NCBI RefSeq assembly: GCF_003399445.1
Contig: NZ_QUQO01000002.1
Span: forward strand, 316,290-380,289
Direction of reading: 5' to 3'
Source: Parvularcula marina
GTDB lineage: Bacteria > Pseudomonadota > Alphaproteobacteria > Caulobacterales > Parvularculaceae
Length of the DNA stretch: 64,000 nt
Position numbers and translations under genes: made by a program. How positions within the stretch are numbered: the first letter of the stretch is position 1; each line of letters begins with the position of its first letter. Positions 30,610 to 64,000 of this stretch are shown in pieces. A model generated the notes under the pieces. The model saw only the letters and a program-made list of their open reading frames with translations. It did no database searches and was not told the DNA's origin.

Positions 30610-30885
30610 GCTCGATTGCGTGCCGATGCATGTCAAAGGTCAGTACAAATAGCATCACGAGATTGTTGCGGATCGGCAACAGCACGAAGTAAAGCCAGAT
30701 TTTCTTTGTCCGAATTCTGGACAACGGCAGAAAGAGTATCCATCTGCTCTCGCGTTCACTTGTCGTATGGTTGGGGCTCCTGAGACCCCGCCGGTGCAGC
30801 CCGTCTCGGACCCTGCGTTCCACGGCAATGAATGCCAAGACCATAGCCAAATCGGAAAAGGCACTCGTCCTGAGGGCGAGAGATT

Positions 30886-30910
30886 GGGGGTTCGAGTCCT
30901 CCTGGTTTTA
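30886..30910 (+). other. Orphan tRNA 3'-end-like fragment (T-arm plus acceptor 3' strand)
   Basis: GGGGG-TTCGAGT-CCTCC then TGGTTTT-A. No matching D-arm, anticodon arm or complementary 5' strand was found upstream. Confidence 0.35.
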
Positions 30911-30981
30911 CATGGATAGCTCAAGGGTAGAGCACTAGACTCATAATCTAGGTGTTGCGGGTTCGATCCCCGCTCCAAAAT
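30910..30981 (+). tRNA. tRNA-like element with CAT anticodon (Met/Ile2-type) and a disrupted acceptor stem; possible tRNA pseudogene or att remnant
   Basis: Canonical D-arm (TAGCTCAAGGGTAGAGCA), a perfect anticodon stem CTAGA/TCTAG with loop CTCATAA, and a T-arm GCGGG-TTCGATC-CCCGC. The 5' strand ACATGGA pairs with only 4 of 7 positions of the 3' strand TCCAAAA. The expected TTTTGGA is split as TTTT-acat-GGA. Confidence 0.5.
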
Positions 30982-56546: not shown

Positions 56547-56927
56547 TCAACGCCCCGGGACGGGGCAAAATTTCACACGTTCCTTAAGGGACGGGCGCGC
56601 GACCTCGACAGCGTAGAGGTCGGTGATGCTCTGGGACAGCACGGCGTGGATATAGCGCGCGATATTCTCGAGCGTCGGGCGCTCAAGCCCTTCAATTGTA
56701 TTGAGAAAACGGTGATCGAGCCTGGCGTGGACCCGCGCGCATTCTTCTTTTAGCGCCGCAAAGTCCATGACCCAGCCCGTCTCACCGACATCTTCGGCGG
56801 CCAAGGTGACGGTCACCTCAAAGCTGTGGCCATGGATATGGCCGTAAGGGTGGTCAGGCTTGTCTTCGACATTGGCGCCCAGCTCATGGGCAGCCTCAAA
56901 GTGAAAAGTGTAGGATTGTTCGAACAT
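56547..56927 (-). CDS. queD: 6-carboxy-5,6,7,8-tetrahydropterin synthase / 6-pyruvoyl-tetrahydropterin synthase
   Basis: 126 aa with FEAAHEL...HGHSF zinc-binding His motifs. Confidence 0.8.
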   Translation of the reverse strand: MFEQSYTFHFEAAHELGANVEDKPDHPYGHIHGHSFEVTVTLAAEDVGETGWVMDFAALKEECARVHARLDHRFLNTIEGLERPTLENIARYIHAVLSQSITDLYAVEVARPSLKERVKFCPVPGR

Positions 56928-57012
56928 CGCGGCGCTCTAGCGCGTTTTTTGTAAATGTGTAGGCGGTTTCGCGGCCCAAACAGGGTGAATGCGCATTTTG
57001 CGGCTCTGATGC

Positions 57013-57399
57013 TTACCCTTTCAGGGCTTCAGGCTCGATATCTGTCATGTGACAGCCGATCCCGGCGCAATCGGCAAAGGCGCTTAGCTTGCGGGTCTCA
57101 ACGATGACCCCGGCAATGGTGTCCCGCGCGCGCAGCCGCTCGATCAGCGCCTCGCAATAGGATTCCTGCAGGCCGAAATGGCGTTCCTCGCACAGCTCCA
57201 GCGCGTCATCGCGAAGGTGGTTATAGTCGACCACATCCTCGATGCCGTCGCCCTCGCCAAGGCGACTGACGATGGCGATGATATCGATACGGACGGGTTG
57301 CGGGCTGACTTCATCGGGATTGACCCCGAGGCGCATGTCGATGCGCAGATTGTCCGCGAAGATCGCGTAATAGCCTTTTGCGAGAAGCGGCACTCTCAT
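57013..57399 (-). CDS. folB: Dihydroneopterin aldolase
   Basis: 128 aa with the FolB fold region (VRIDIIAIVSRLGEG...DYN). It overlaps the upstream SDR gene by 4 bp. Confidence 0.7.
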   Translation of the reverse strand: MRVPLLAKGYYAIFADNLRIDMRLGVNPDEVSPQPVRIDIIAIVSRLGEGDGIEDVVDYNHLRDDALELCEERHFGLQESYCEALIERLRARDTIAGVIVETRKLSAFADCAGIGCHMTDIEPEALKG

Positions 57400-58145
57400 T
57401 TGCCTTCTCCCTTGAATGAAATGTCCCGGTGCGTCGGGATCAGATGCTCGCCATTATCGGCCAGGATCGTCTGGCCGGTGATCGCCCGGCAGGAAAGACA
57501 GAAGGCGACTGTGCGGGCGATATCTTCCGGGTCGAGACGGCGGCCCAGCGGATTGGCGCTGGCGGCCTTCTTCTCGAATGCGGCCTCGCTCTCTCCGGGT
57601 GAGGGCAGGGTATAGCCGGGGGCAACACCGCAGACGCGGATATGGGGCGCAAAATCCTGCGCCATCAGATGGGTGGCGGTCTGGAGCGCAGATTTCGACA
57701 GCGTGTAGCTGTAATGGTCCGGGTAAAGATTGGAGAGCTTCTGGTCGAGGATATTGACGATGACCGGATCGCCCGCTCTGTCCACCTGTTCGGCAAAAGC
57801 GCGGGCAAGGAGCACCGGCGCAAGCGTATTGGTCCGCAAATGCGCCATCAGCGAGGCTTCGCTGACATCGCCTGCGCGGTCATGCTCGAAGATCGAGGCA
57901 TTATTGATGAGCGCCGAGAGGGGGCCACCGGCAGCTTTTACGGCCTTGCCGATCAGCCCACTGACCGCCTCCGCATCGGCAAGGTCGGCGCCGACAGCGA
58001 CTGTGCCCAGCTCATCAGCCAGCGCGCGGGCTTCATCGCCTGAATGGTTATAATGGATGACCGGCTGCCAGCCTTGCGCCTTCAGATGGCGTGCGATCAC
58101 CGCGCCGAGGCGCTTCGCGCTGCCGGTGACAAGGACGCGCTTCAA
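57396..58145 (-). CDS. SDR-family oxidoreductase, probable pteridine reductase
   Basis: TGSAKRLG Rossmann motif and a YxxxK catalytic pair. Operonic with folB. Confidence 0.65.
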   Translation of the reverse strand: MKRVLVTGSAKRLGAVIARHLKAQGWQPVIHYNHSGDEARALADELGTVAVGADLADAEAVSGLIGKAVKAAGGPLSALINNASIFEHDRAGDVSEASLMAHLRTNTLAPVLLARAFAEQVDRAGDPVIVNILDQKLSNLYPDHYSYTLSKSALQTATHLMAQDFAPHIRVCGVAPGYTLPSPGESEAAFEKKAASANPLGRRLDPEDIARTVAFCLSCRAITGQTILADNGEHLIPTHRDISFKGEGK

Positions 58146-59158
58146 GCGGGCAGCACGGGTTCGGCCTTCGCCCCGATCAGGACGATATAGGCAAGATAAG
58201 CGATGACGAAGATCGCGCCGACCGGCCGGCTGATCCGGCCCTTGCTGAAGATCAGGGCCGAGACGATGATCGCCGCGGCGATCATCATTGGCAAATCATA
58301 GAGCTTGAGGGCTTCTGACTGGGCAAAGCCTGTCGTGCCGGTCACGCCCATGGCGCCGCCGACAAACAGGATGTTGAAGATGTTCGAGCCGACAATATTG
58401 CCGCAGGCGACATCCGCCTCATTCTTGCGGGCAGCGGCCCAGACAGTCGCAAGCTCGGGCAGGGAGGTGCCGAAGGCCACGATGGTGAGGCCGATCAGCT
58501 CGTCCCGGACACCAAGTGCTGAGGCAAGGTCCGCCCCTGAATTGACGAGCAGCGTGGCGCCGACCGGCAGCAGGACGAGGCCCGTAATCAGGAAGAACAA
58601 AGTCTTGGGGATCGGCATGCCCGAGGCATCATCCTCGGCGCCAAGGTCGCCCATGACTTCTGATTCGATCAGCTCTTTTTCGGGGCTGCCGGGCCGCATC
58701 GCGGCATAGGCGACATATCCGACATAAATGAGAATGCCGCCGAGCAGGACGAGACCCATCTGCGTGTCGAGGCTTTCATGGACATAGACGATATACGCAA
58801 AGAGCGCGGTTGCCACGAGCATCACGGCGGTGTGACGCTTGAGCCCCGGGAAATGGAACGCAATCGGCGCGATCATCGCCGGCAGGCCGAGGACGAGCAG
58901 GATATTGGCGATGTTGGAGCCGACAATATTGCCAACAGCGATGCCGTTATTGCCAGCAAGGACAGCCTGGATCGAGACGACGAGCTCTGGCGCCGAGGTG
59001 CCGAAGGCAACGATCGTCAGGCCGATCAGGAGGCTGGGGATACCGAGATGAGCCGCGAGGCTGACGGCGCCGCGCACCAGCCAGTCACCGCCGACAAGCA
59101 GCAGAACGATGCCAACGATAACCAGCCCAATATCCAGTCCAACATCAGCAAGCATCAA
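58142..59158 (-). CDS. Ca2+/Na+ antiporter (CaCA family, YrbG-like)
   Basis: Two internal alpha-repeat regions (GNIVGSNIANILLVLG and GNIVGSNIFNILFVGG) and 10 TM helices. Confidence 0.8.
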   Translation of the reverse strand: MMLADVGLDIGLVIVGIVLLLVGGDWLVRGAVSLAAHLGIPSLLIGLTIVAFGTSAPELVVSIQAVLAGNNGIAVGNIVGSNIANILLVLGLPAMIAPIAFHFPGLKRHTAVMLVATALFAYIVYVHESLDTQMGLVLLGGILIYVGYVAYAAMRPGSPEKELIESEVMGDLGAEDDASGMPIPKTLFFLITGLVLLPVGATLLVNSGADLASALGVRDELIGLTIVAFGTSLPELATVWAAARKNEADVACGNIVGSNIFNILFVGGAMGVTGTTGFAQSEALKLYDLPMMIAAAIIVSALIFSKGRISRPVGAIFVIAYLAYIVLIGAKAEPVLPA

Positions 59159-59512
59159 TTCGGCCCCTTAATTACGCACATTCAGGCCAGCCCGGCCCAT
59201 CACTCTCCCTCTGGCAGGGAGATAAAGCCTTGAGGGTCAGTCCCAGCGGCCTTTTTCGATGATGTTGAGTGCGACGAAGGAGAGCACGAAAGCAAAAATC
59301 ATGATGAGGGCGGGGCTAAGAAGGAACATATGGGGTCGGTCCTCATTTCCGTAAATGACGTGAATTGGTGTCTTCTCGATGCCCTCTAGCGGGCACCGTA
59401 TGGTTTCGCCAGTGGGCACCGTCAGGAGACTCACTCCTGACCTTGTACGCGAAGATAGGTCAGCGTATGCGCCGCGGCCAGTGCAAAGGCCCGAGTGGCA
59501 GGAGCTTTTATC

Positions 59513-60286
59513 ATGTTTGAGACCATTGAGACGCGCAATGAAGGCAATGTGACGCTGATTACGCTCTCCCGTCCGGACGCCCTGAATGCGCTCAATGCCC
59601 AGCTGATGGGCGAACTGACGCAGGCCGTGAAGCAGGCGGAAGAAGACACCGCCATCGGCGCGATCGTCATCACCGGTTCGGAGAAAGCCTTCGCCGCTGG
59701 CGCCGACATCAAGGAAATGGCCGATCTCGAATTCTCGCAAGTCTTCAATGAGGACAAAGTCAGCGCGGCGATGGATGAGATCACCCGCTGCCGCAAGCCG
59801 ATCATCGCGGCTGTTGCTGGCTATGCGCTCGGTGGCGGCTGTGAGCTTGCCATGATGTGTGACTTCATCATTGCGGCGGACACGGCAAAATTCGGCCAGC
59901 CGGAAATCACTATCGGCGTCATCCCCGGCATTGGCGGTACCCAGCGCCTGACCCGCTTCATTGGCAAATCAAAGGCAATGGAGATGTGCCTGACCGGCCG
60001 GATGATGGGCGCTGAAGAAGCCGAACGCGCAGGGCTCGTCTCACGCATCGTTCCGGCAGCGGAGCTTGTGAGCAATGCCCTCGAAGTGGCGCAGCGAATC
60101 GCCGAGTTCTCTCGCCCGGTTGTGATGATGGCCAAGGAATGCGTGAACCGCGCCTATGAGACGACACTCACCGAAGGTGTCCTCTTTGAGCGCCGGGTCT
60201 TTAACTCGGTCTTCGCGCTTGAAGATCAGAAGGAAGGCATGACGGCCTTCGTCGAAAAGCGTAAAGCCGCCTTCAAAAACCGCTAA
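59513..60286 (+). CDS. Enoyl-CoA hydratase/isomerase family protein
   Basis: Crotonase-fold motifs ([14 protein letters not shown] and [13 protein letters not shown]). GGAG lies 8 nt upstream of the ATG at 59513. Confidence 0.85.
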
Positions 60287-60309
60287 CCCAGTTAGGCCGG
60301 ATACCGCCC

Positions 60310-62217
60310 ATGCATGATACGGTCCTCGTCGTTACCCTGATCGGGATTCTCGGAATCGGGGCCCAATGGATCGCGTGGCGCACAAATATGCCCGCCATCG
60401 TATTGATGGCGATTGCCGGGCTGATCGTCGGGCCGTTCCTTGGCATCCTCAAGCCGGAGGAGACCTTCGGCGAATTCTACCGGCCGATCATTTCTCTCGC
60501 CGTCGCCGTGATCCTCTTTGAGGGCGGACTACAGCTCAAGTTCAGTGAACTGAGAGGATTGAGCCGGGGGATCGGTCAGCTCTTGCTGATCGGTGGGCCG
60601 CTCGTCTGGATCTTTGGTTCGATCGCTGGGTATTACGTCGCGGGGCTCGATTGGCCGACCGCGATCCTCTTTGCCGGGATCATGATCGTGACCGGACCGA
60701 CGGTGATCATTCCGCTCCTGCGGCAGGCCAAGCTCTCGACCCGTCCTTCGGCCATCCTCAAATGGGAGGGGATCGTCAATGATCCCGTCGGCGCACTCGC
60801 GGCCGTCATCACCTTTGAATATGTCATCACCCGGAATATGGCCTCGCTCACGAGCTTTGAGGTCTTTGGCAGCCTGATCTTCGGCTCGATCCTGTGCGTT
60901 GCATGGGGGATTATCGTCGGGCGCGGGCTCGCCGAGGCGTTTCGCCGCGGCTGGGTACCAGAATATCTTAAGGCGCCGATCCTGCTGACCGCCGTTCTCC
61001 TCGCCTTTTCGGTTTCCAACCTGCTGCAGGAAGAGGGCGGCCTGATCGCCGTCACGGTCATGGGCATTACCATGGCCAACTCAAAGCTCCCCTCGATCAA
61101 CCAGATCCGGCATTTCAAGGAGACGATTGCGATCCTCTTCGTCGCCGGGGTTTTTGTTCTGCTCACTGCCAATCTGACGCTTGAGACGCTAGCGATGATC
61201 GATTTGCGGATCATGGGCTTTGTGGCTGTCATGCTCTTCGTTGTGCGCCCTGCCGCCGTCATGCTTTCAACCATGAGGACCGAACTTTCCTTGCAGGAGC
61301 GGCTGCTTGTCAGCTGGATCGCGCCGCGCGGGATCGTGGCGGTTGCGGTTTCTGGTCTCTTCGCAGCGTCAATGACGCCAGAGAACGGGTTCGAGAATGG
61401 TCACCTGATGGTGCCGCTCGCCTTTGCGATGGTGTTCGCGACCGTCATCCTGCACGGCTTCACGATCACGCCCTTGGGCAAGTTTCTTGGCCTTGCCTCT
61501 GATGCCCCGCCGGGCGTCCTGATCGTCGGCGCTTCACCCTGGGCCGTGGCGCTTGCCAAAAGAATCAAGGAGCTTGGCTGTCCGGTTCTGATCACCGACC
61601 CCAGCTTCCGGCGCCTGCGCGAAGCTCGGCAGAAAGGGATCGACACCTTCTATGGCGAGATCCTCTCTGAGGTGACCGAGCACCACATCGAATTTGTCCG
61701 CTATGGCTATCTGCTCGCACTGTCGGGGAATGAGGCGCACAACGCGCTGGTCTGTACCGATCTTGCGCCGGAGATGTCGCGTAATTCGACCTATCAGCTC
61801 TCCGCCAAGGGCCGCGATGACAGCCGCCAGTCAGTGTCTTACGCGCTGCAAGGCCGGTCGTTCCTGTCGGAGAAGACGGGTCTCGAGGACCTCTTGCGCC
61901 GTCACTGGGCTGGCTGGGCATTCCAGTTCACGCGGCTGTCGGAGGAGTTCACTCCGGCCAAATACCGCGAGCGCCTGCCTGAAGAAGCGATGATCGTCAT
62001 GGTCGAGCGCAAGGGCGGTCTTGTCTTCCAGACCAGCGAAGCCCCCATCGAGCTTCAGGTCGGGGACCGCGTCCTCGCTTATGTCCCGCCCGAAACTGGC
62101 CCGCTGCAAAAGCCTTCCAAAAAGAAGGACGAAAAGGCCGCCGGAGAGGGCACGTCTGAAGACGTCAAGGAAATCGAGCGCCGCAAGAGCGAAGCGATCG
62201 ACAAACTCAAGTCTTAA
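60310..62217 (+). CDS. CPA1-family cation:proton (Na+/H+) antiporter with a C-terminal cytoplasmic regulatory domain
   Basis: An N-terminal ~400-aa polytopic Na+/H+ exchanger domain and a C-terminal ~230-aa soluble TrkA-C/RCK-like region. Confidence 0.75.
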   Translation: MHDTVLVVTLIGILGIGAQWIAWRTNMPAIVLMAIAGLIVGPFLGILKPEETFGEFYRPIISLAVAVILFEGGLQLKFSELRGLSRGIGQLLLIGGPLVWIFGSIAGYYVAGLDWPTAILFAGIMIVTGPTVIIPLLRQAKLSTRPSAILKWEGIVNDPVGALAAVITFEYVITRNMASLTSFEVFGSLIFGSILCVAWGIIVGRGLAEAFRRGWVPEYLKAPILLTAVLLAFSVSNLLQEEGGLIAVTVMGITMANSKLPSINQIRHFKETIAILFVAGVFVLLTANLTLETLAMIDLRIMGFVAVMLFVVRPAAVMLSTMRTELSLQERLLVSWIAPRGIVAVAVSGLFAASMTPENGFENGHLMVPLAFAMVFATVILHGFTITPLGKFLGLASDAPPGVLIVGASPWAVALAKRIKELGCPVLITDPSFRRLREARQKGIDTFYGEILSEVTEHHIEFVRYGYLLALSGNEAHNALVCTDLAPEMSRNSTYQLSAKGRDDSRQSVSYALQGRSFLSEKTGLEDLLRRHWAGWAFQFTRLSEEFTPAKYRERLPEEAMIVMVERKGGLVFQTSEAPIELQVGDRVLAYVPPETGPLQKPSKKKDEKAAGEGTSEDVKEIERRKSEAIDKLKS

Positions 62218-62267
62218 CTCCTGATTAATCAACCTCGCCGATAGATTAATGGCGTATGTGATTAGGG

Positions 62268-63152
62268 GTGGCAGCCATGACGGCGGTTCGGGCGGCACGT
62301 TCTCGCCGCCATAAGAACGATTTGCTGAACGTTTATGCGGAGCGTCTTGGTGACGCCATCCGGCGCCATCACTCGGGCGTGGCTTTGCGTGCAGCCAAGG
62401 TTGAGACAGAGCTCGCCTATCGGGCGCGCGGCGCATTCCTCGCTTCGATGAACCACGAGCTTCGGACACCGCTCAATGCGATCACCGGATTCGCCGGGAT
62501 TTTGCGGCAGGCGGAGGAAATGCAGATCACACCTGAGCAGAAGAACGAATATATCGACTATATTCTGCAGTCGGCCGACTTGCTGCTCTCGCATATCAAC
62601 ACGATCCTCGAAATTGCCGATGCCGAAAGCGGCGGCACCAAGCTCTCCCGCCGGGCTGTCGACATCCTCGATGTTCTGACCCAGACGATGGAAGCGCTGG
62701 AGGAAGATGACGCGATCGACGTCACCTTCACCCGTGATTTCGGTGGCGAGCTGCCCCCCGTCGATGTTGATCCGGACAAAGTCGCCATCGCCTTCCGCCA
62801 TCTGGTTGAATTCCTGAACTCGGATGAACCGGTCTCGATCAAGGTCAGCACACGGCGCGGGCTTGCGGGTGAGAGCGCCAATTATGTCTATATCGCCTTT
62901 GATGCGACCGGTACGGAAGTTGACGCCAAGATGATCGATGAGTCCTTGCGCGTATTCGAGCAGGTTCATGAGGGGCTTTACCGCCAGTTCGATCCGCGGC
63001 GGCTCGGCCTGCCGATTGCGAAAAGCTATATCGAACTAAACAAGGGTAAGTTCAGCATCAAGACCAAACCGGATGACGGCGTTCTGATCCGCTTCTCCCT
63101 GCCGGTCGCGAGCGAAGAGCATAAGCGCGCGTTTGAAAGGCTGGCTTCATGA
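62268..63152 (+). CDS. Cytoplasmic sensor histidine kinase (HisKA plus HATPase_c, no TM helices)
   Basis: H-box ASMNHELRTPLNAITGF and a C-terminal ATPase region. The start is either the GTG at 62268 or the ATG at 62277. Confidence 0.75.
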   Translation: MAAMTAVRAARSRRHKNDLLNVYAERLGDAIRRHHSGVALRAAKVETELAYRARGAFLASMNHELRTPLNAITGFAGILRQAEEMQITPEQKNEYIDYILQSADLLLSHINTILEIADAESGGTKLSRRAVDILDVLTQTMEALEEDDAIDVTFTRDFGGELPPVDVDPDKVAIAFRHLVEFLNSDEPVSIKVSTRRGLAGESANYVYIAFDATGTEVDAKMIDESLRVFEQVHEGLYRQFDPRRLGLPIAKSYIELNKGKFSIKTKPDDGVLIRFSLPVASEEHKRAFERLAS

Positions 63153-64000
63153 GTGCGGTCAGCCGTCATGCCACCGTCAGGCTCGGACGGGTCGTTGCCA
63201 ATACGGGGCGCGACGTCCTTGTCCTCATCGATTCCCATGCGGAAGAACGCCCCACCTTGCGGATGGGCGATGTCGTTCTTGCCGCAGGGCGGAATGAGCC
63301 GGCGGTCGGTGTAATATCAGGGATCAACGCGCCAGCTCCGGGCCTTGAGGGCGATGGCGAGGATCTCTGGGTCATTCAGGTCGAACTGACCGGTAGTCTC
63401 AAATCCGACGGCGATGTGCCGGTCTATAGCCGCGGCGTGCCCGCATCCCCTGCGCTTGGCTCCGTCGTGCATCTGGCGACCACCCCTGACCTCAAACTGC
63501 TTCATCGCAATGCGGATGAAACAGCGCTGCCCATCGGGGATGTACAGGGGATCAATGGCGTCAAGGCTACGGTCGATCCGGATATGCTGCTGGATGGCGG
63601 CTTTGCGATCATGGGGGCGTCTGGCACTGGCAAGAGTGCGTCGCTTGCCTGTATCGTCCGGGCGCTTCTGCGTGCGCGATTCCCGATCCATGCGCTCCTG
63701 ATCGATCCTTACAATGAATTCGGCACATCCTTTGGCAAAGCTGCCAGTGTCATTGAGCCGCGACCGGGCCTCTTTCCGCACTGGCTCCTGACTTATGATG
63801 AGCTGGTCTGGGTCCTCTCGATGAGCGGGGATGATCTGGACCGGGATGAACGGGCATTGCTTGATCAGGCCATCCCGTCAGCTCGCCGAAATTTTCTCCA
63901 GCGGCATGGTCAGATCATGGGCTCCGAAGGGGTCTCTATTGATGCGCCGATCCCTTACCGCGTGACGGATCTTCTGACCTTTATCGAGAAGGCGGCTGAG
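63149..64000 (+). CDS. HerA/DUF87-like P-loop ATPase, 3'-truncated by the window end
   Basis: Translated by hand from the ATG at 63149 (an ATGA overlap with the kinase stop). Walker A IMGASGTGKSAS is preceded by the HerA-type N-terminal barrel region. The frame is open to the window end. Confidence 0.6.
   Translation, partial: MSAVSRHATVRLGRVVANTGRDVLVLIDSHAEERPTLRMGDVVLAAGRNEPAVGVISGINAPAPGLEGDGEDLWVIQVELTGSLKSDGDVPVYSRGVPASPALGSVVHLATTPDLKLLHRNADETALPIGDVQGINGVKATVDPDMLLDGGFAIMGASGTGKSASLACIVRALLRARFPIHALLIDPYNEFGTSFGKAASVIEPRPGLFPHWLLTYDELVWVLSMSGDDLDRDERALLDQAIPSARRNFLQRHGQIMGSEGVSIDAPIPYRVTDLLTFIEKAAE

What the first reader, a model, noticed from the sequence alone, without database searches (positions are those of the whole stretch)
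62268..64000. Cytoplasmic histidine kinase translationally coupled to a HerA/DUF87-like ATPase
The 294-aa kinase has no TM helices, no recognisable sensor domain and no adjacent response regulator. Its stop overlaps (ATGA) the start of a P-loop ATPase whose Walker A (GASGTGKS) and N-terminal region resemble HerA/FtsK-like DUF87 ATPases. DUF87 ATPases are frequent components of anti-phage and conjugation systems. A histidine kinase-HerA pairing is not a described system as far as I know, and the gene continues beyond the window.
Basis: partly seen in the sequence, partly recalled or inferred. Interest (0 to 1): 0.6.

Follow-up and report, generated by a model that had tools for sequence, protein, structure and literature searches.

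The report
HerA ATPase paired with histidine kinase
A sensor-less histidine-kinase-like gene and a HerA-type ring ATPase form a tightly linked two-gene unit that is conserved across several orders of Alphaproteobacteria, sits in ordinary chromosomal surroundings behind a conserved CtrA-type (cell-cycle regulator) promoter motif, and has no description in the papers I could search; in this genome the kinase has lost its ATP-binding residues.

Summary
A 291-aa (294 from the GTG) soluble HisKA-type protein ends in an ATGA overlap with a HerA/DUF87 ATPase that runs off the window. The organism is Parvularcula marina.

The pairing is not chance. In 76 of the 80 best HerA relatives from different species genomes, an HK homologue lies directly upstream on the same strand. 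These span Parvularculaceae, Hyphomicrobiaceae, Rhodospirillales, Kiloniellales, Stellaceae and Inquilinaceae. The genes overlap or are a few tens of nt apart.

Outside Parvularculaceae, only these two genes are conserved neighbours. Flanks are housekeeping genes. There is no response regulator, NurA, SIR2, DUF4297, T4SS or island signature, so the defence or conjugation reading is not supported.

Two new points:
- A TTAA-N7-TTAA CtrA-type box lies at 62214-62228, the only one in the 64 kb. It is positionally conserved upstream of the kinase in 70/79 loci (≤1 mismatch), against 0.8% of random windows. A −10-like element follows at fixed distance.
- In the genus Parvularcula the kinase ATP-binding boxes (N, G1, G2) are lost while the H-box is intact and selection is purifying. 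The partner's Walker B reads D-N.

Best reading: a CtrA-controlled signalling module in which the HerA ring is the input partner of a sensor-less kinase/phosphatase. The mechanism is inferred.

The parts
62214..62228 (+). CtrA-type box TTAACTCCTGATTAA (TTAA-N7-TTAA). Its first half-site overlaps the TAA stop of the upstream Na+/H+ exchanger gene.
   Evidence: It is the only exact match in the 64-kb window; 0.06 are expected from shuffles. The same motif lies at a conserved position upstream of the HK in relatives. Identification as a CtrA site rests on the motif only; the consensus TTAA-N7-TTAAC is from PMC7200025.
62240..62247 (+). -10-like element GATAGATT, 11-13 nt after the box.
   Evidence: The family consensus is TTAACg.cgCaTTAG-cgcTTg..cgCTAgg.TTT, so a CTAg element lies at fixed distance from the box. 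That spacing puts the box over the -35 region. This is inferred, not mapped.
62264..62268 (+). Shine-Dalgarno-like AGGGG, 8 nt before ATG 62277.
   Evidence: Read directly from the sequence. It supports ATG 62277 as the start, matching the 291-aa NCBI protein P0002.
62277..63152 (+). HK-like gene (291 aa; 294 aa if read from GTG 62268): soluble HisKA-family protein with a degenerate CA domain.
   Evidence: dN/dS against L092 is 0.08.
62277..62423 (+). Family-specific N-terminal helical extension (about 49 aa, conserved LL..Y motif), continuous with DHp helix 1. Candidate docking element for HerA (inferred).
   Evidence: The model shows one helix over residues 3-77. L16 is nearly invariant in 116 homologues.
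62424..62633 (+). DHp/HisKA domain. The phospho-acceptor His codon is at 62454-62456, in MNHELRTPLNAI.
   Evidence: Pfam HisKA E=3.3e-16. H, E(+1) and T(+4) are invariant in 80/80 family members.
62652..63107 (+). CA-like domain with its ATP-binding boxes lost. N-box remnant HLVEFLNS at 62799-62822 (Asn replaced by Phe). G1 remnant DATGTE at 62901-62918 (DxGxG has become AxGxE). G2 remnant PRRLGLP at 62994-63014.
   Evidence: HATPase_c scores 23.9 bits here, below the 26.4 cut-off, against 99-106 bits in Hyphomicrobiaceae and Rhodospirillales orthologues. The fold is retained. dN/dS of this domain is 0.11.
63149..63152 (+). ATGA: the HerA start codon overlaps the HK stop codon.
   Evidence: In relatives the junction runs from -17 to +35 nt in all but four of 79 loci.
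63149..64000 (+). 5' part (284 of 537 codons) of the HerA-family ATPase gene; it runs off the window.
   Evidence: The full length is known from P0126. The model's top matches are SIR2/HerA, DUF4297/HerA, NurA/HerA and Sulfolobus HerA, TM 0.75-0.81.
63176..63478 (+). Beta-rich N-terminal domain (residues about 10-110), HAS-barrel-like.
   Evidence: Strands 11-109 in the model. Whole-chain structural matches to HerA include this domain.
63614..63637 (+). Walker A GASGTGKS.
   Evidence: G-x-x-G-x-GKS is present in all 84 family members tabulated.

Best explanation
The two genes form one conserved signalling module of Alphaproteobacteria. It is transcribed from its own promoter, which carries a CtrA-type box over the -35 region.

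The first product is a dimeric HisKA-type protein with no sensor domain, only a roughly 45-residue helical extension. The second is a HerA-family P-loop ATPase that, by homology, forms a hexameric ring.

Proposed mechanism (inferred): the HerA ring is the input partner supplied in trans. It binds the kinase dimer in the way HerA rings bind their dimeric partners NurA, SIR2 or DUF4297. Its nucleotide state, and possibly its DNA-bound state, sets the kinase/phosphatase balance of the HK. The HK then acts on a response regulator encoded elsewhere, plausibly within the DivK/PleD/CtrA network, because the operon looks CtrA-controlled and the least derived kinases score best against DivJ/PdhS cores.

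In ancestral-type members (Hyphomicrobiaceae, Rhodospirillales) both enzymes have complete catalytic motifs. In Parvularculaceae the kinase's Mg-ATP Asn is lost. In the genus Parvularcula, including this window, the whole ATP site is lost and the partner's second Walker B acid is Asn. Here the pair most likely works as an ATP-bound switch plus a phosphatase or phosphotransfer protein, not as a kinase.

Shown: the anatomy, the conservation of the pair, the motif losses, purifying selection and the conserved promoter motif.
Inferred: physical interaction, direction of control, identity of the regulator, and CtrA binding.
For: Linkage:
- An HK lies directly upstream on the same strand in 76/80 species-level loci from at least six alphaproteobacterial families or orders.
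- The junction is -17 to +35 nt in all but four of 79 loci.
- In 30 non-Parvularculaceae loci the HK (30/30) and HerA (29/30) are the only real conserved genes; the next real neighbour gene occurs in at most 7/30, and the other high-count ORF clusters lie inside the HerA gene.

Core-genome setting:
- Synteny ECH - Na/H exchanger - HK - HerA in Parvularculaceae.
- Flanks elsewhere are sdhAB, a DegP-like protease, a TonB-domain protein and a ManC-like enzyme.
- GC at the locus is 0.59, typical of the window.
- The HerA tree groups by taxon.

Promoter:
- Exact TTAA-N7-TTAA at 62214, unique in 64 kb.
- Exact motif density is 2.26/kb in the -130..-30 region of 79 loci, against 0.0072/kb in the other 967 kb.
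- With ≤1 mismatch, 70/79 loci carry it, against 0.8% of random windows.
- The position is conserved and a CTAg element follows at fixed spacing.
- It is absent upstream of HerA relatives that have no kinase gene ('solo').
- The CtrA consensus TTAA-N7-TTAAC is from PMC7200025. A single site at -35 is typical of CtrA-activated promoters (PMC11264516, abstract).

Partner logic:
- The HerA model matches SIR2/HerA, DUF4297/HerA and NurA/HerA chains.
- An E. coli plasmid SIR2-HerA has the same order, effector then HerA, with overlapping genes.

Kinase state:
- H-E-x-x-T is invariant in 80/80.
- N, G1 and G2 boxes are lost in the Parvularcula clade.
- HATPase_c scores 23 bits against 71-106 bits in other clades.
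- dN/dS is 0.08-0.11.

Other:
- Walker B of P0126 is LVLMDNAERY, against the family CE(E/D)AHRY.
- The best NCBIfam cores for the Rhodospirillales orthologue are DivJ (217.6 bits) and PdhS (211.9 bits).
Against: - No direct evidence of interaction exists. No HK-HerA fusion was seen among the ten N-terminally extended proteins I checked from the top 150 representatives.
- No response regulator is identified.
- For other members the best HK cores are BarA, TorS or LuxQ rather than DivJ, so the DivK/CtrA link is weak.
- CtrA binding is inferred from a motif; another regulator could use a similar site.
- Nine of 79 loci lack the motif even with one mismatch.
- Only the best 80 of at least 590 relatives were inspected. 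Solo relatives exist in Sinorhizobium, Sphingomonas and four MAGs, so HerA can work without the kinase.
- That the second Walker B acid is the catalytic residue is taken from my knowledge of HerA/FtsK-type ATPases and was not tested.
Confidence: 0.5

Rival explanations
1. The direction of control is reversed. HerA is the working enzyme, a DNA or substrate translocase acting at a cell-cycle stage set by CtrA. The HK-like protein is its regulatory or adaptor subunit, with or without phosphotransfer, as NurA, SIR2 or DUF4297 are partner subunits of other HerA rings.
For: - HerA relatives occur without any kinase in a core-genome setting in Sinorhizobium and Sphingomonas and in four MAGs. So the ATPase has a function of its own.
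- The kinase's enzymatic site decays in one lineage while the protein stays under purifying selection, as expected of a structural or regulatory subunit.
- The fold matches DNA-translocating HerA complexes.
Against: - The phospho-acceptor His and the E/T phosphatase motif are invariant in 80/80 members. That argues phosphoryl chemistry at the His is still the selected function.
- The CtrA-type box is found only where the kinase is present.
- In the same lineage HerA's own Walker B also departs from consensus.
Confidence: 0.22
2. In this genome the HK-like protein is a ChpT-like histidine phosphotransferase. It would take phosphate from a hybrid kinase receiver and pass it on. HerA would be only co-transcribed, or would modulate the relay.
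For: - The CA domain has lost the N, G1 and G2 boxes but is conserved and folded.
- The H-box is intact.
- In Parvularcula relatives a hybrid HisKA-HATPase-receiver kinase lies about 4 kb downstream.
Against: - There is no Pfam match to the ChpT family HPTransfase at E ≤ 0.1.
- ChpT is not among the top 50 structural matches.
- This explains only the Parvularcula clade. Orthologues elsewhere have complete kinase boxes.
- The hybrid kinase is not a conserved neighbour outside that clade.
Confidence: 0.12
3. It is an anti-phage HerA system, like SIR2-HerA or DUF4297-HerA, with a histidine kinase as a new effector or alarm output.
For: - The nearest solved structures and NCBIfam/PADLOC models are anti-phage HerA.
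- The gene order, effector then HerA with overlap, matches an E. coli plasmid SIR2-HerA.
Against: - Conserved housekeeping synteny, and no island, integrase or other defence genes nearby.
- Typical GC.
- The tree follows taxonomy.
- NCBIfam equivalog scores are 64.7 and 247.9 bits against a cut-off of 850.
- The HK has no PADLOC hit.
- A conserved cell-cycle-type promoter motif.
Confidence: 0.05
4. It is a fragment of a conjugative T4SS (VirB4/TraD-like ATPase) in an ICE.
For: Only faint TrwB_AAD_bind and FtsK_SpoIIIE Pfam matches in some relatives.
Against: - The best sequence and fold matches are HerA throughout.
- The protein is complete at 537 aa in P. marina.
- No T4SS, relaxase or integrase neighbours in any locus.
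Confidence: 0.01

Closest known systems
SIR2-HerA and DUF4297-HerA anti-phage complexes
   Same: HerA-family ATPase with HAS-barrel-like N-domain and RecA-like core; these are the best sequence and structure matches. Two-gene unit with the partner gene upstream and overlapping the HerA start. From my knowledge, the partner is an oligomer that docks on the ring.
   Different: The partner here is a HisKA-type two-component protein, not an NADase or nuclease. The unit is in the core chromosome, follows taxonomy, and has a CtrA-type promoter. NCBIfam equivalog cut-offs are missed by a wide margin. In P. marina the Walker B reads D-N.
Archaeal/bacterial HerA-NurA DNA end-resection machine
   Same: Same ATPase family and fold (4d2i, 9x1l/9x1m).
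   Different: No NurA, Mre11 or Rad50 gene in any of the inspected loci. The NCBIfam helicase_HerA score is 44.7 bits against a cut-off of 970.
KaiC-SasA/CikA (ring ATPase that sets the activity of a histidine kinase)
   Same: Functional analogy only: a RecA-superfamily hexameric ATPase acting as input for a kinase that has no ligand-sensing domain of its own (from my knowledge).
   Different: Different ATPase family. No KaiB-like domain on the kinase. Interaction here is unproven.
Degenerate kinase-fold proteins of the CtrA network: ChpT (phosphotransferase) and DivL (pseudokinase)
   Same: DHp plus CA-like fold with a non-functional ATP site. DivL (4q20) is among the top structural matches. 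Both belong to alphaproteobacterial cell-cycle signalling.
   Different: This protein keeps a canonical H-box (DivL has Tyr, from my knowledge). It has no HPTransfase Pfam match. Orthologues outside Parvularculaceae are complete kinases.
PleC/DivJ/PdhS-type cell-cycle kinases
   Same: The kinase core of the Rhodospirillales orthologue scores best against the NCBIfam DivJ and PdhS models. JGI labels several homologues 'PleC'. The promoter carries a CtrA-type box.
   Different: Scores of 70-218 bits are far below the equivalog cut-offs of 1000-2000. There are no PAS or TM sensor regions. The protein is about 290 aa and always followed by HerA.

Membership tests
HisKA-type (class I) histidine kinase | DHp domain with H-box phospho-acceptor His | tested here: met
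   Pfam HisKA E=3.3e-16. MNHELRTPLNAI is present, with H/E/T invariant in 80/80 members. The model shows a helical hairpin.
HisKA-type (class I) histidine kinase | CA domain fold (Bergerat alpha/beta sandwich) | tested here: met
   Model pLDDT is above 90 over most of residues 126-277. Foldseek matches WalK, HK853 and DivL at E around 1e-14.
HisKA-type (class I) histidine kinase | ATP-binding boxes: N-box Asn, G1 DxGxG, G2 GxGxG | tested here: not met
   In the window the N-box Asn is Phe, G1 reads AxGxE and G2 reads PxRxG. HATPase_c scores 23.9 bits, below the 26.4 cut-off. Orthologues in other orders have all three boxes.
HisKA-type (class I) histidine kinase | Autophosphorylation and transfer to a cognate response regulator | not testable with these tools
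   No regulator is adjacent.
HerA family (FtsK-HerA superfamily) | DUF87/HerA central ATPase domain with Walker A | tested here: met
   Pfam DUF87 scores 56 bits for the window part and 66 bits for P0126, cut-off 23.2. GASGTGKS is present.
HerA family (FtsK-HerA superfamily) | N-terminal HAS-barrel plus RecA-like core, whole-chain fold | tested here: met
   Model pLDDT 83. Foldseek to SIR2/HerA 8wod gives E=1e-33 and TM 0.75/0.81. Sulfolobus HerA 4d2i gives E=9e-27.
HerA family (FtsK-HerA superfamily) | Walker B with two acidic residues (hhhh[DE]E) | tested here: not met
   P0126 reads LVLMDNAERY. The family consensus is CE(E/D)AHRY in all other tabulated members; D-N is seen only in the window/P0126, L092 and L004. 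The first acid is kept; the second is Asn.
HerA family (FtsK-HerA superfamily) | Hexameric ring; DNA translocation | not testable with these tools
   Only a monomer could be modelled.
HerA-NurA repair system | Adjacent NurA nuclease (often with Mre11/Rad50) | tested here: not met
   None in any inspected neighbourhood. The NCBIfam equivalog scores 44.7 bits against 970.
Anti-phage HerA systems (SIR2-HerA, DUF4297-HerA) | SIR2 or DUF4297 effector gene next to HerA; match to curated anti-phage HerA models | tested here: not met
   The upstream gene is an HK in 76/80 loci. The HK has no PADLOC hit. NF042944 scores 64.7 bits against 850.
Anti-phage HerA systems (SIR2-HerA, DUF4297-HerA) | Defence-island or mobile context, patchy distribution | tested here: not met
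   Housekeeping flanks and conserved synteny. Typical GC. The tree groups by taxon.
Conjugative T4SS ATPase (VirB4/TraD/TrwB) | Family match and T4SS or relaxase neighbours | tested here: not met
   No Pfam VirB4 or TrwB match for the window protein or for P0126. No such neighbours.
CtrA regulon | TTAA-N7-TTAA(C) box in the promoter, typically over -35 | tested here: met
   62214-62228, unique in the window. Conserved in position in 70/79 loci with ≤1 mismatch, against 0.8% of random windows. The consensus is from PMC7200025.
CtrA regulon | CtrA binding and CtrA-dependent transcription | not testable with these tools
   Needs ChIP, footprinting or reporter assays.
ChpT-type histidine phosphotransferase | HPTransfase family match | tested here: not met
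   Not listed at E ≤ 0.1 in the Pfam scan.

The most novel reading that the evidence does not exclude
The HerA ring is a sensor of chromosome or DNA state, in line with the FtsK-HerA family's DNA-translocase ancestry. It would gate a PleC/DivJ-like kinase/phosphatase that feeds back on the DivK/CtrA circuit. That would make it a previously unrecognised, CtrA-induced checkpoint module coupling DNA status to two-component cell-cycle control in many Alphaproteobacteria. In Parvularcula it would have been reduced to a nucleotide-bound switch plus a phosphatase-only pseudokinase.
Probability: 0.15. Interest if true: 0.85.

Novelty: new variant of a known kind. Interest (0 to 1): 0.66.

Why it matters
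HerA rings are known as motors that team up with nucleases or NADases for DNA repair and phage defence. Two-component kinases are known to take input from their own sensor domains or from a few accessory proteins.

A HerA ATPase fixed as the partner of a sensor-less kinase would be a new way of feeding information into two-component signalling, and a new job for HerA. This pair is vertically inherited across several alphaproteobacterial orders and sits behind a CtrA-type promoter.

It also gives the CtrA field an unstudied, conserved candidate regulon member. The stepwise loss of the kinase's ATP site (complete, then N-box lost, then all boxes lost) under continued purifying selection is a natural series for studying how kinases become pseudokinases or phosphatases.

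Tried and rejected
- The word-indexed protein search with the 284-aa HerA fragment gave one hit only, a limit of the prefilter. The profile search gave 20 hits but did recover the full-length P. marina protein.
- Exact look-up of the P. marina kinase P0002 found no contig, so context came from relatives and from the genome scan.
- Literature: HerA + histidine kinase + Alphaproteobacteria, DUF87 + histidine kinase, COG0433 + histidine kinase, HerA + HAS-barrel + two-component, and 'CtrA regulon' + HerA all gave nothing relevant. One badly designed search was wasted. The 2004 FtsK-HerA comparative genomics paper is not held. The Brilli 2010 and Hyphomonas CtrA papers and supplements do not mention the pair.
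- Natural HK-HerA fusions: ten N-terminally extended HerA representatives have no HK domain.
- A third conserved gene (regulator, nuclease): none. Solo HerA relatives have no conserved neighbour either.
- Other upstream motifs tested: the alphaproteobacterial LexA box, an EcfG/RpoH-like motif, a sigma-54 motif and GANTC are not enriched. The sigma-70 consensus scan found nothing and gave no convincing terminator between the exchanger gene and the HK.
- Cluster-member look-up to find model organisms gave only Parvularcula bermudensis PB2503_12079 (COG0433, K06915).
- The Rfam scan of the window found only tRNAs.
Full report
**What is there**

The window is from Parvularcula marina. The kinase-like protein is 100% identical to an NCBI P. 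marina protein (P0002).

The ORF at 62268-63152 (+) matches Pfam HisKA (E=3.3e-16). It matches HATPase_c only below threshold: 23.9 bits against a gathering score of 26.4. The more likely start is ATG 62277, giving 291 aa as in P0002. It lies 8 nt after an AGGGG run, and GTG 62268 lies inside that run.

Its TGA stop overlaps the ATG of the next ORF as ATGA (63149-63152). That ORF runs off the window after 284 codons. It carries GASGTGKS (63614-63637) and matches Pfam DUF87 'Helicase HerA central domain' (E=7.5e-15), PADLOC HerA (E=3.4e-26) and solved HerA proteins. A 537-aa protein of another P. marina strain (P0126) is identical at 283/284 positions and supplies the missing half.

AlphaFold models are confident:
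- Kinase-like protein: pLDDT 88. One long helix (3-77) runs into DHp helix 1, followed by a second helix and an alpha/beta CA domain. Best structural matches are WalK, HK853 and DivL.
- HerA-like protein: pLDDT 83. A beta-rich N-domain is followed by a RecA-like core. Best matches are SIR2/HerA (E=1e-33, TM 0.75-0.81), DUF4297/HerA, NurA/HerA and Sulfolobus HerA.

There is no TM segment and no sensor domain. No receiver domain was detected in the 64 kb.

**Is the pairing conserved?**

Yes, strongly.

Contigs carrying kinase homologues at 85-38% identity all show kinase then DUF87 protein (530-579 aa) on one strand.

I kept the best 80. In 76 of them tblastn finds a kinase homologue immediately upstream on the same strand. 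The record titles name Parvularculaceae, Hyphomicrobiaceae, Rhodospirillales, Kiloniellales, Stellaceae and Inquilinaceae.

The distance from kinase stop to HerA start is -17 to +35 nt in all but four of 79 loci. The commonest values are overlaps of 14 and 4 nt.

In 30 non-Parvularculaceae loci the kinase (30/30) and HerA (29/30) are the only real conserved genes. The other high-count ORF clusters lie inside the HerA gene on other frames or the opposite strand, and the next real neighbour gene is shared by at most 7 loci. The unit is therefore exactly two genes, with no response regulator, NurA or other partner.

**Setting**

In Parvularculaceae the unit follows an enoyl-CoA hydratase gene and a Na+/H+ exchanger gene in conserved synteny. 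Elsewhere its neighbours include succinate dehydrogenase subunits, a DegP-like protease, a TonB-domain protein and a ManC-like enzyme.

GC at the locus is 0.59, like the rest of the window. A rough NJ tree of the HerA proteins groups by taxon and separates the whole clade from an E. coli plasmid SIR2-HerA.

The kinase has no PADLOC match. NCBIfam's anti-phage HerA equivalog scores 64.7 bits for P0126 and 247.9 bits for a Hyphomicrobiaceae member, against a cut-off of 850. There are no T4SS, relaxase or integrase genes nearby. I therefore reject both the defence-island reading and the ICE-fragment reading.

HerA relatives without a kinase exist:
- Sinorhizobium meliloti, next to ilvIH. The 3.7-Mb record is labelled pSymB but looks like the chromosome, which is my inference.
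- Sphingomonas.
- Four MAG loci that nest within the kinase-linked Hyphomicrobiales clade.

**A conserved CtrA-type promoter motif**

I tested several alphaproteobacterial regulator motifs upstream of the kinase. TTAA-N7-TTAA was found in 21 of 78 upstream regions, against 0.1 expected from shuffles. The LexA, EcfG-like, sigma-54 and GANTC motifs were not enriched.

In the window the motif is TTAACTCCTGATTAA at 62214-62228. It is the only exact occurrence in 64 kb, with 0.06 expected. It overlaps the stop codon of the exchanger gene.

Across 79 loci:
- The exact motif occurs 18 times in the -130..-30 region (2.26 per kb), against 7 times in the remaining 967 kb (0.0072 per kb).
- Allowing one mismatch, 70 of 79 loci have it there, against 0.8% of random 101-nt windows.

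Aligned on the motif, the regions give the consensus TTAACg.cgCaTTAG-cgcTTg..cgCTAgg.TTT. This is the box followed at fixed distance by a CTAg element that looks like a -10 element, which would place the box over -35. Many Parvularculaceae have a second box about 38 nt further upstream, exact in about a dozen loci. Solo HerA genes lack the motif.

TTAA-N7-TTAAC is the CtrA consensus found by ChIP-seq in Hyphomonas and reported for other species (PMC7200025). A single site at -35 is the usual arrangement of CtrA-activated promoters (PMC11264516 abstract). Binding by CtrA is inferred from the motif, not shown.

**State of the two enzymes**

Column-by-column comparison of 80 kinases and 84 HerA proteins shows a stepwise series:

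| Clade | Kinase N-box | G1 | G2 | HATPase_c (bits) | HerA Walker B |
|---|---|---|---|---|---|
| Hyphomicrobiaceae, Rhodospirillales | NLLSNAVK | DTGIGM | GTGLGLP | 99-106 | CEEAHRY |
| Marinicaulis, Hyphococcus, Amphiplicatus | Asn lost (HLLQTAIK) | kept | mostly kept | 71 | mostly CEDAHRY |
| Genus Parvularcula (window, L092, L004, L001) | HLVEFLNS | DATGTE | PRRLGLP | 23 | D-N in window/P0126, L092, L004; E-D in L001 |

DUF87 scores 66 bits in P0126 against 143 bits in a Hyphomicrobiaceae member.

The phospho-acceptor His, with Glu at +1 and Thr at +4, is invariant in 80/80. From my knowledge, that E/T pair is the phosphatase motif of HisKA kinases.

The genes are not decaying. dN/dS between the window and the 85%-identical relative L092 is 0.08 for the kinase, 0.11 for its CA domain and 0.09 for HerA. 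dS is above 1, so these values are approximate.

I conclude that in P. marina the 'kinase' very probably cannot bind ATP. It would act through its His as a phosphatase or phosphotransfer protein. HerA probably binds nucleotide but hydrolyses it poorly. That last point rests on my knowledge that the second Walker B acid is the catalytic residue in this superfamily.

**How it most likely works**

The kinase has no input domain. The only family-specific part is the N-terminal helical extension with a conserved LL..Y motif. Its constant companion is a ring ATPase whose relatives all work as complexes with dimeric or oligomeric partner proteins encoded just upstream.

My best reading (confidence about 0.5) is that HerA is the input partner of the kinase. 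It would set the kinase/phosphatase balance according to its nucleotide state, and possibly its DNA-bound state. The module would be expressed under CtrA and would signal to a regulator encoded elsewhere.

A link to the DivK/PleD/CtrA network is suggested by three things: the promoter, the top NCBIfam scores of the Rhodospirillales orthologue against DivJ and PdhS cores, and JGI's PleC labels. The link is weak, because other members score best against BarA, TorS or LuxQ.

Rivals:
- The reverse direction of control, with the kinase-like protein as a regulatory subunit of a HerA motor (0.22).
- A ChpT-like phosphotransferase role in Parvularcula (0.12).
- Phage defence (0.05).
- A T4SS fragment (0.01).

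**Comparison with what is known, and novelty**

The ATPase is a member of the HerA family by domain, fold and Walker A, but it fails the Walker B test in this genome. It is not a member of the curated NurA-linked or anti-phage equivalogs.

The first protein is a HisKA-family protein by descent and fold, but it fails the ATP-box tests.

The architecture resembles SIR2-HerA and DUF4297-HerA (effector plus HerA). The logic resembles KaiC-SasA (a ring ATPase driving a kinase). I found no description of a HerA-kinase pair in the searchable literature. I cannot exclude a mention in papers that are not held.

I rate it a new variant of a known kind: a HerA-partner module with a new class of partner, in a housekeeping and probably cell-cycle-controlled role.

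**Limits**

- Only the best 80 relatives were inspected.
- The tree is a simple NJ tree.
- Upstream positions are anchored on tblastn alignments.
- CtrA binding, complex formation and all activities are inferred.

Noticed in passing
window 30837-30977: Two tRNA-like genes lie 2 nt apart. Rfam scores both (51.9 and 53.8 bits). ARAGORN calls only the first, as a 75-nt tRNA-Ser(tga), which is short for a Ser tRNA. The second has a CAT anticodon loop and a truncated model match. An odd pair.
   Followed up: partly
L001 14742-17555; L004 15411-18395 (relatives of the region just beyond the window end): In Parvularcula relatives a hybrid kinase (HisKA-HATPase_c-receiver, 937-1002 aa) lies about 4 kb downstream of the pair, on the same strand. 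It could be a phosphodonor for the degenerate kinase. It is not a conserved neighbour in other clades.
   Followed up: no
L032, L061, L086, L055, L065 (C-termini of the HerA homologues): Hyphomicrobiaceae-type HerA proteins carry 150-250-aa low-complexity Pro/Gln/Ala-rich C-terminal tails. The tails end in a short basic, amphipathic-looking segment such as ...LRDRLRKQS or ...LAKRMRKLEG. This could be a membrane-targeting or partner-binding peptide. It is absent in Parvularculaceae.
   Followed up: no
L093 5920-7956 (Sinorhizobium meliloti); L094 4737-6374 (Sphingomonas): HerA relatives of the same alphaproteobacterial clade occur without a kinase in core-genome positions: next to ilvIH/miaA/serB in S. 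meliloti, and after a TIGR02186/TauE pair in Sphingomonas. They lack the CtrA-type box. The S. meliloti record is labelled pSymB but is 3.7 Mb.
   Followed up: partly
window 59495-62217 and L001-L091: Enoyl-CoA hydratase and a Na+/H+ exchanger with a TrkA_N domain precede the pair in nearly all Parvularculaceae that have enough upstream sequence. The exchanger's stop codon lies inside the CtrA-type box, so the two transcription units abut.
   Followed up: partly
L037 2270-2284; L043 2284-2298: A second exact TTAA-N7-TTAA lies near the start of the enoyl-CoA hydratase gene in two Parvularculaceae MAG loci (L037 is labelled Marinicaulis). Its position relative to that gene's start was not checked.
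   Followed up: no
window 56547-59158 (- strand): A co-directional run of PTPS-like, FolB-like, short-chain dehydrogenase and Na+/Ca2+ exchanger genes. It is also syntenic in relatives and looks ordinary.
   Followed up: no
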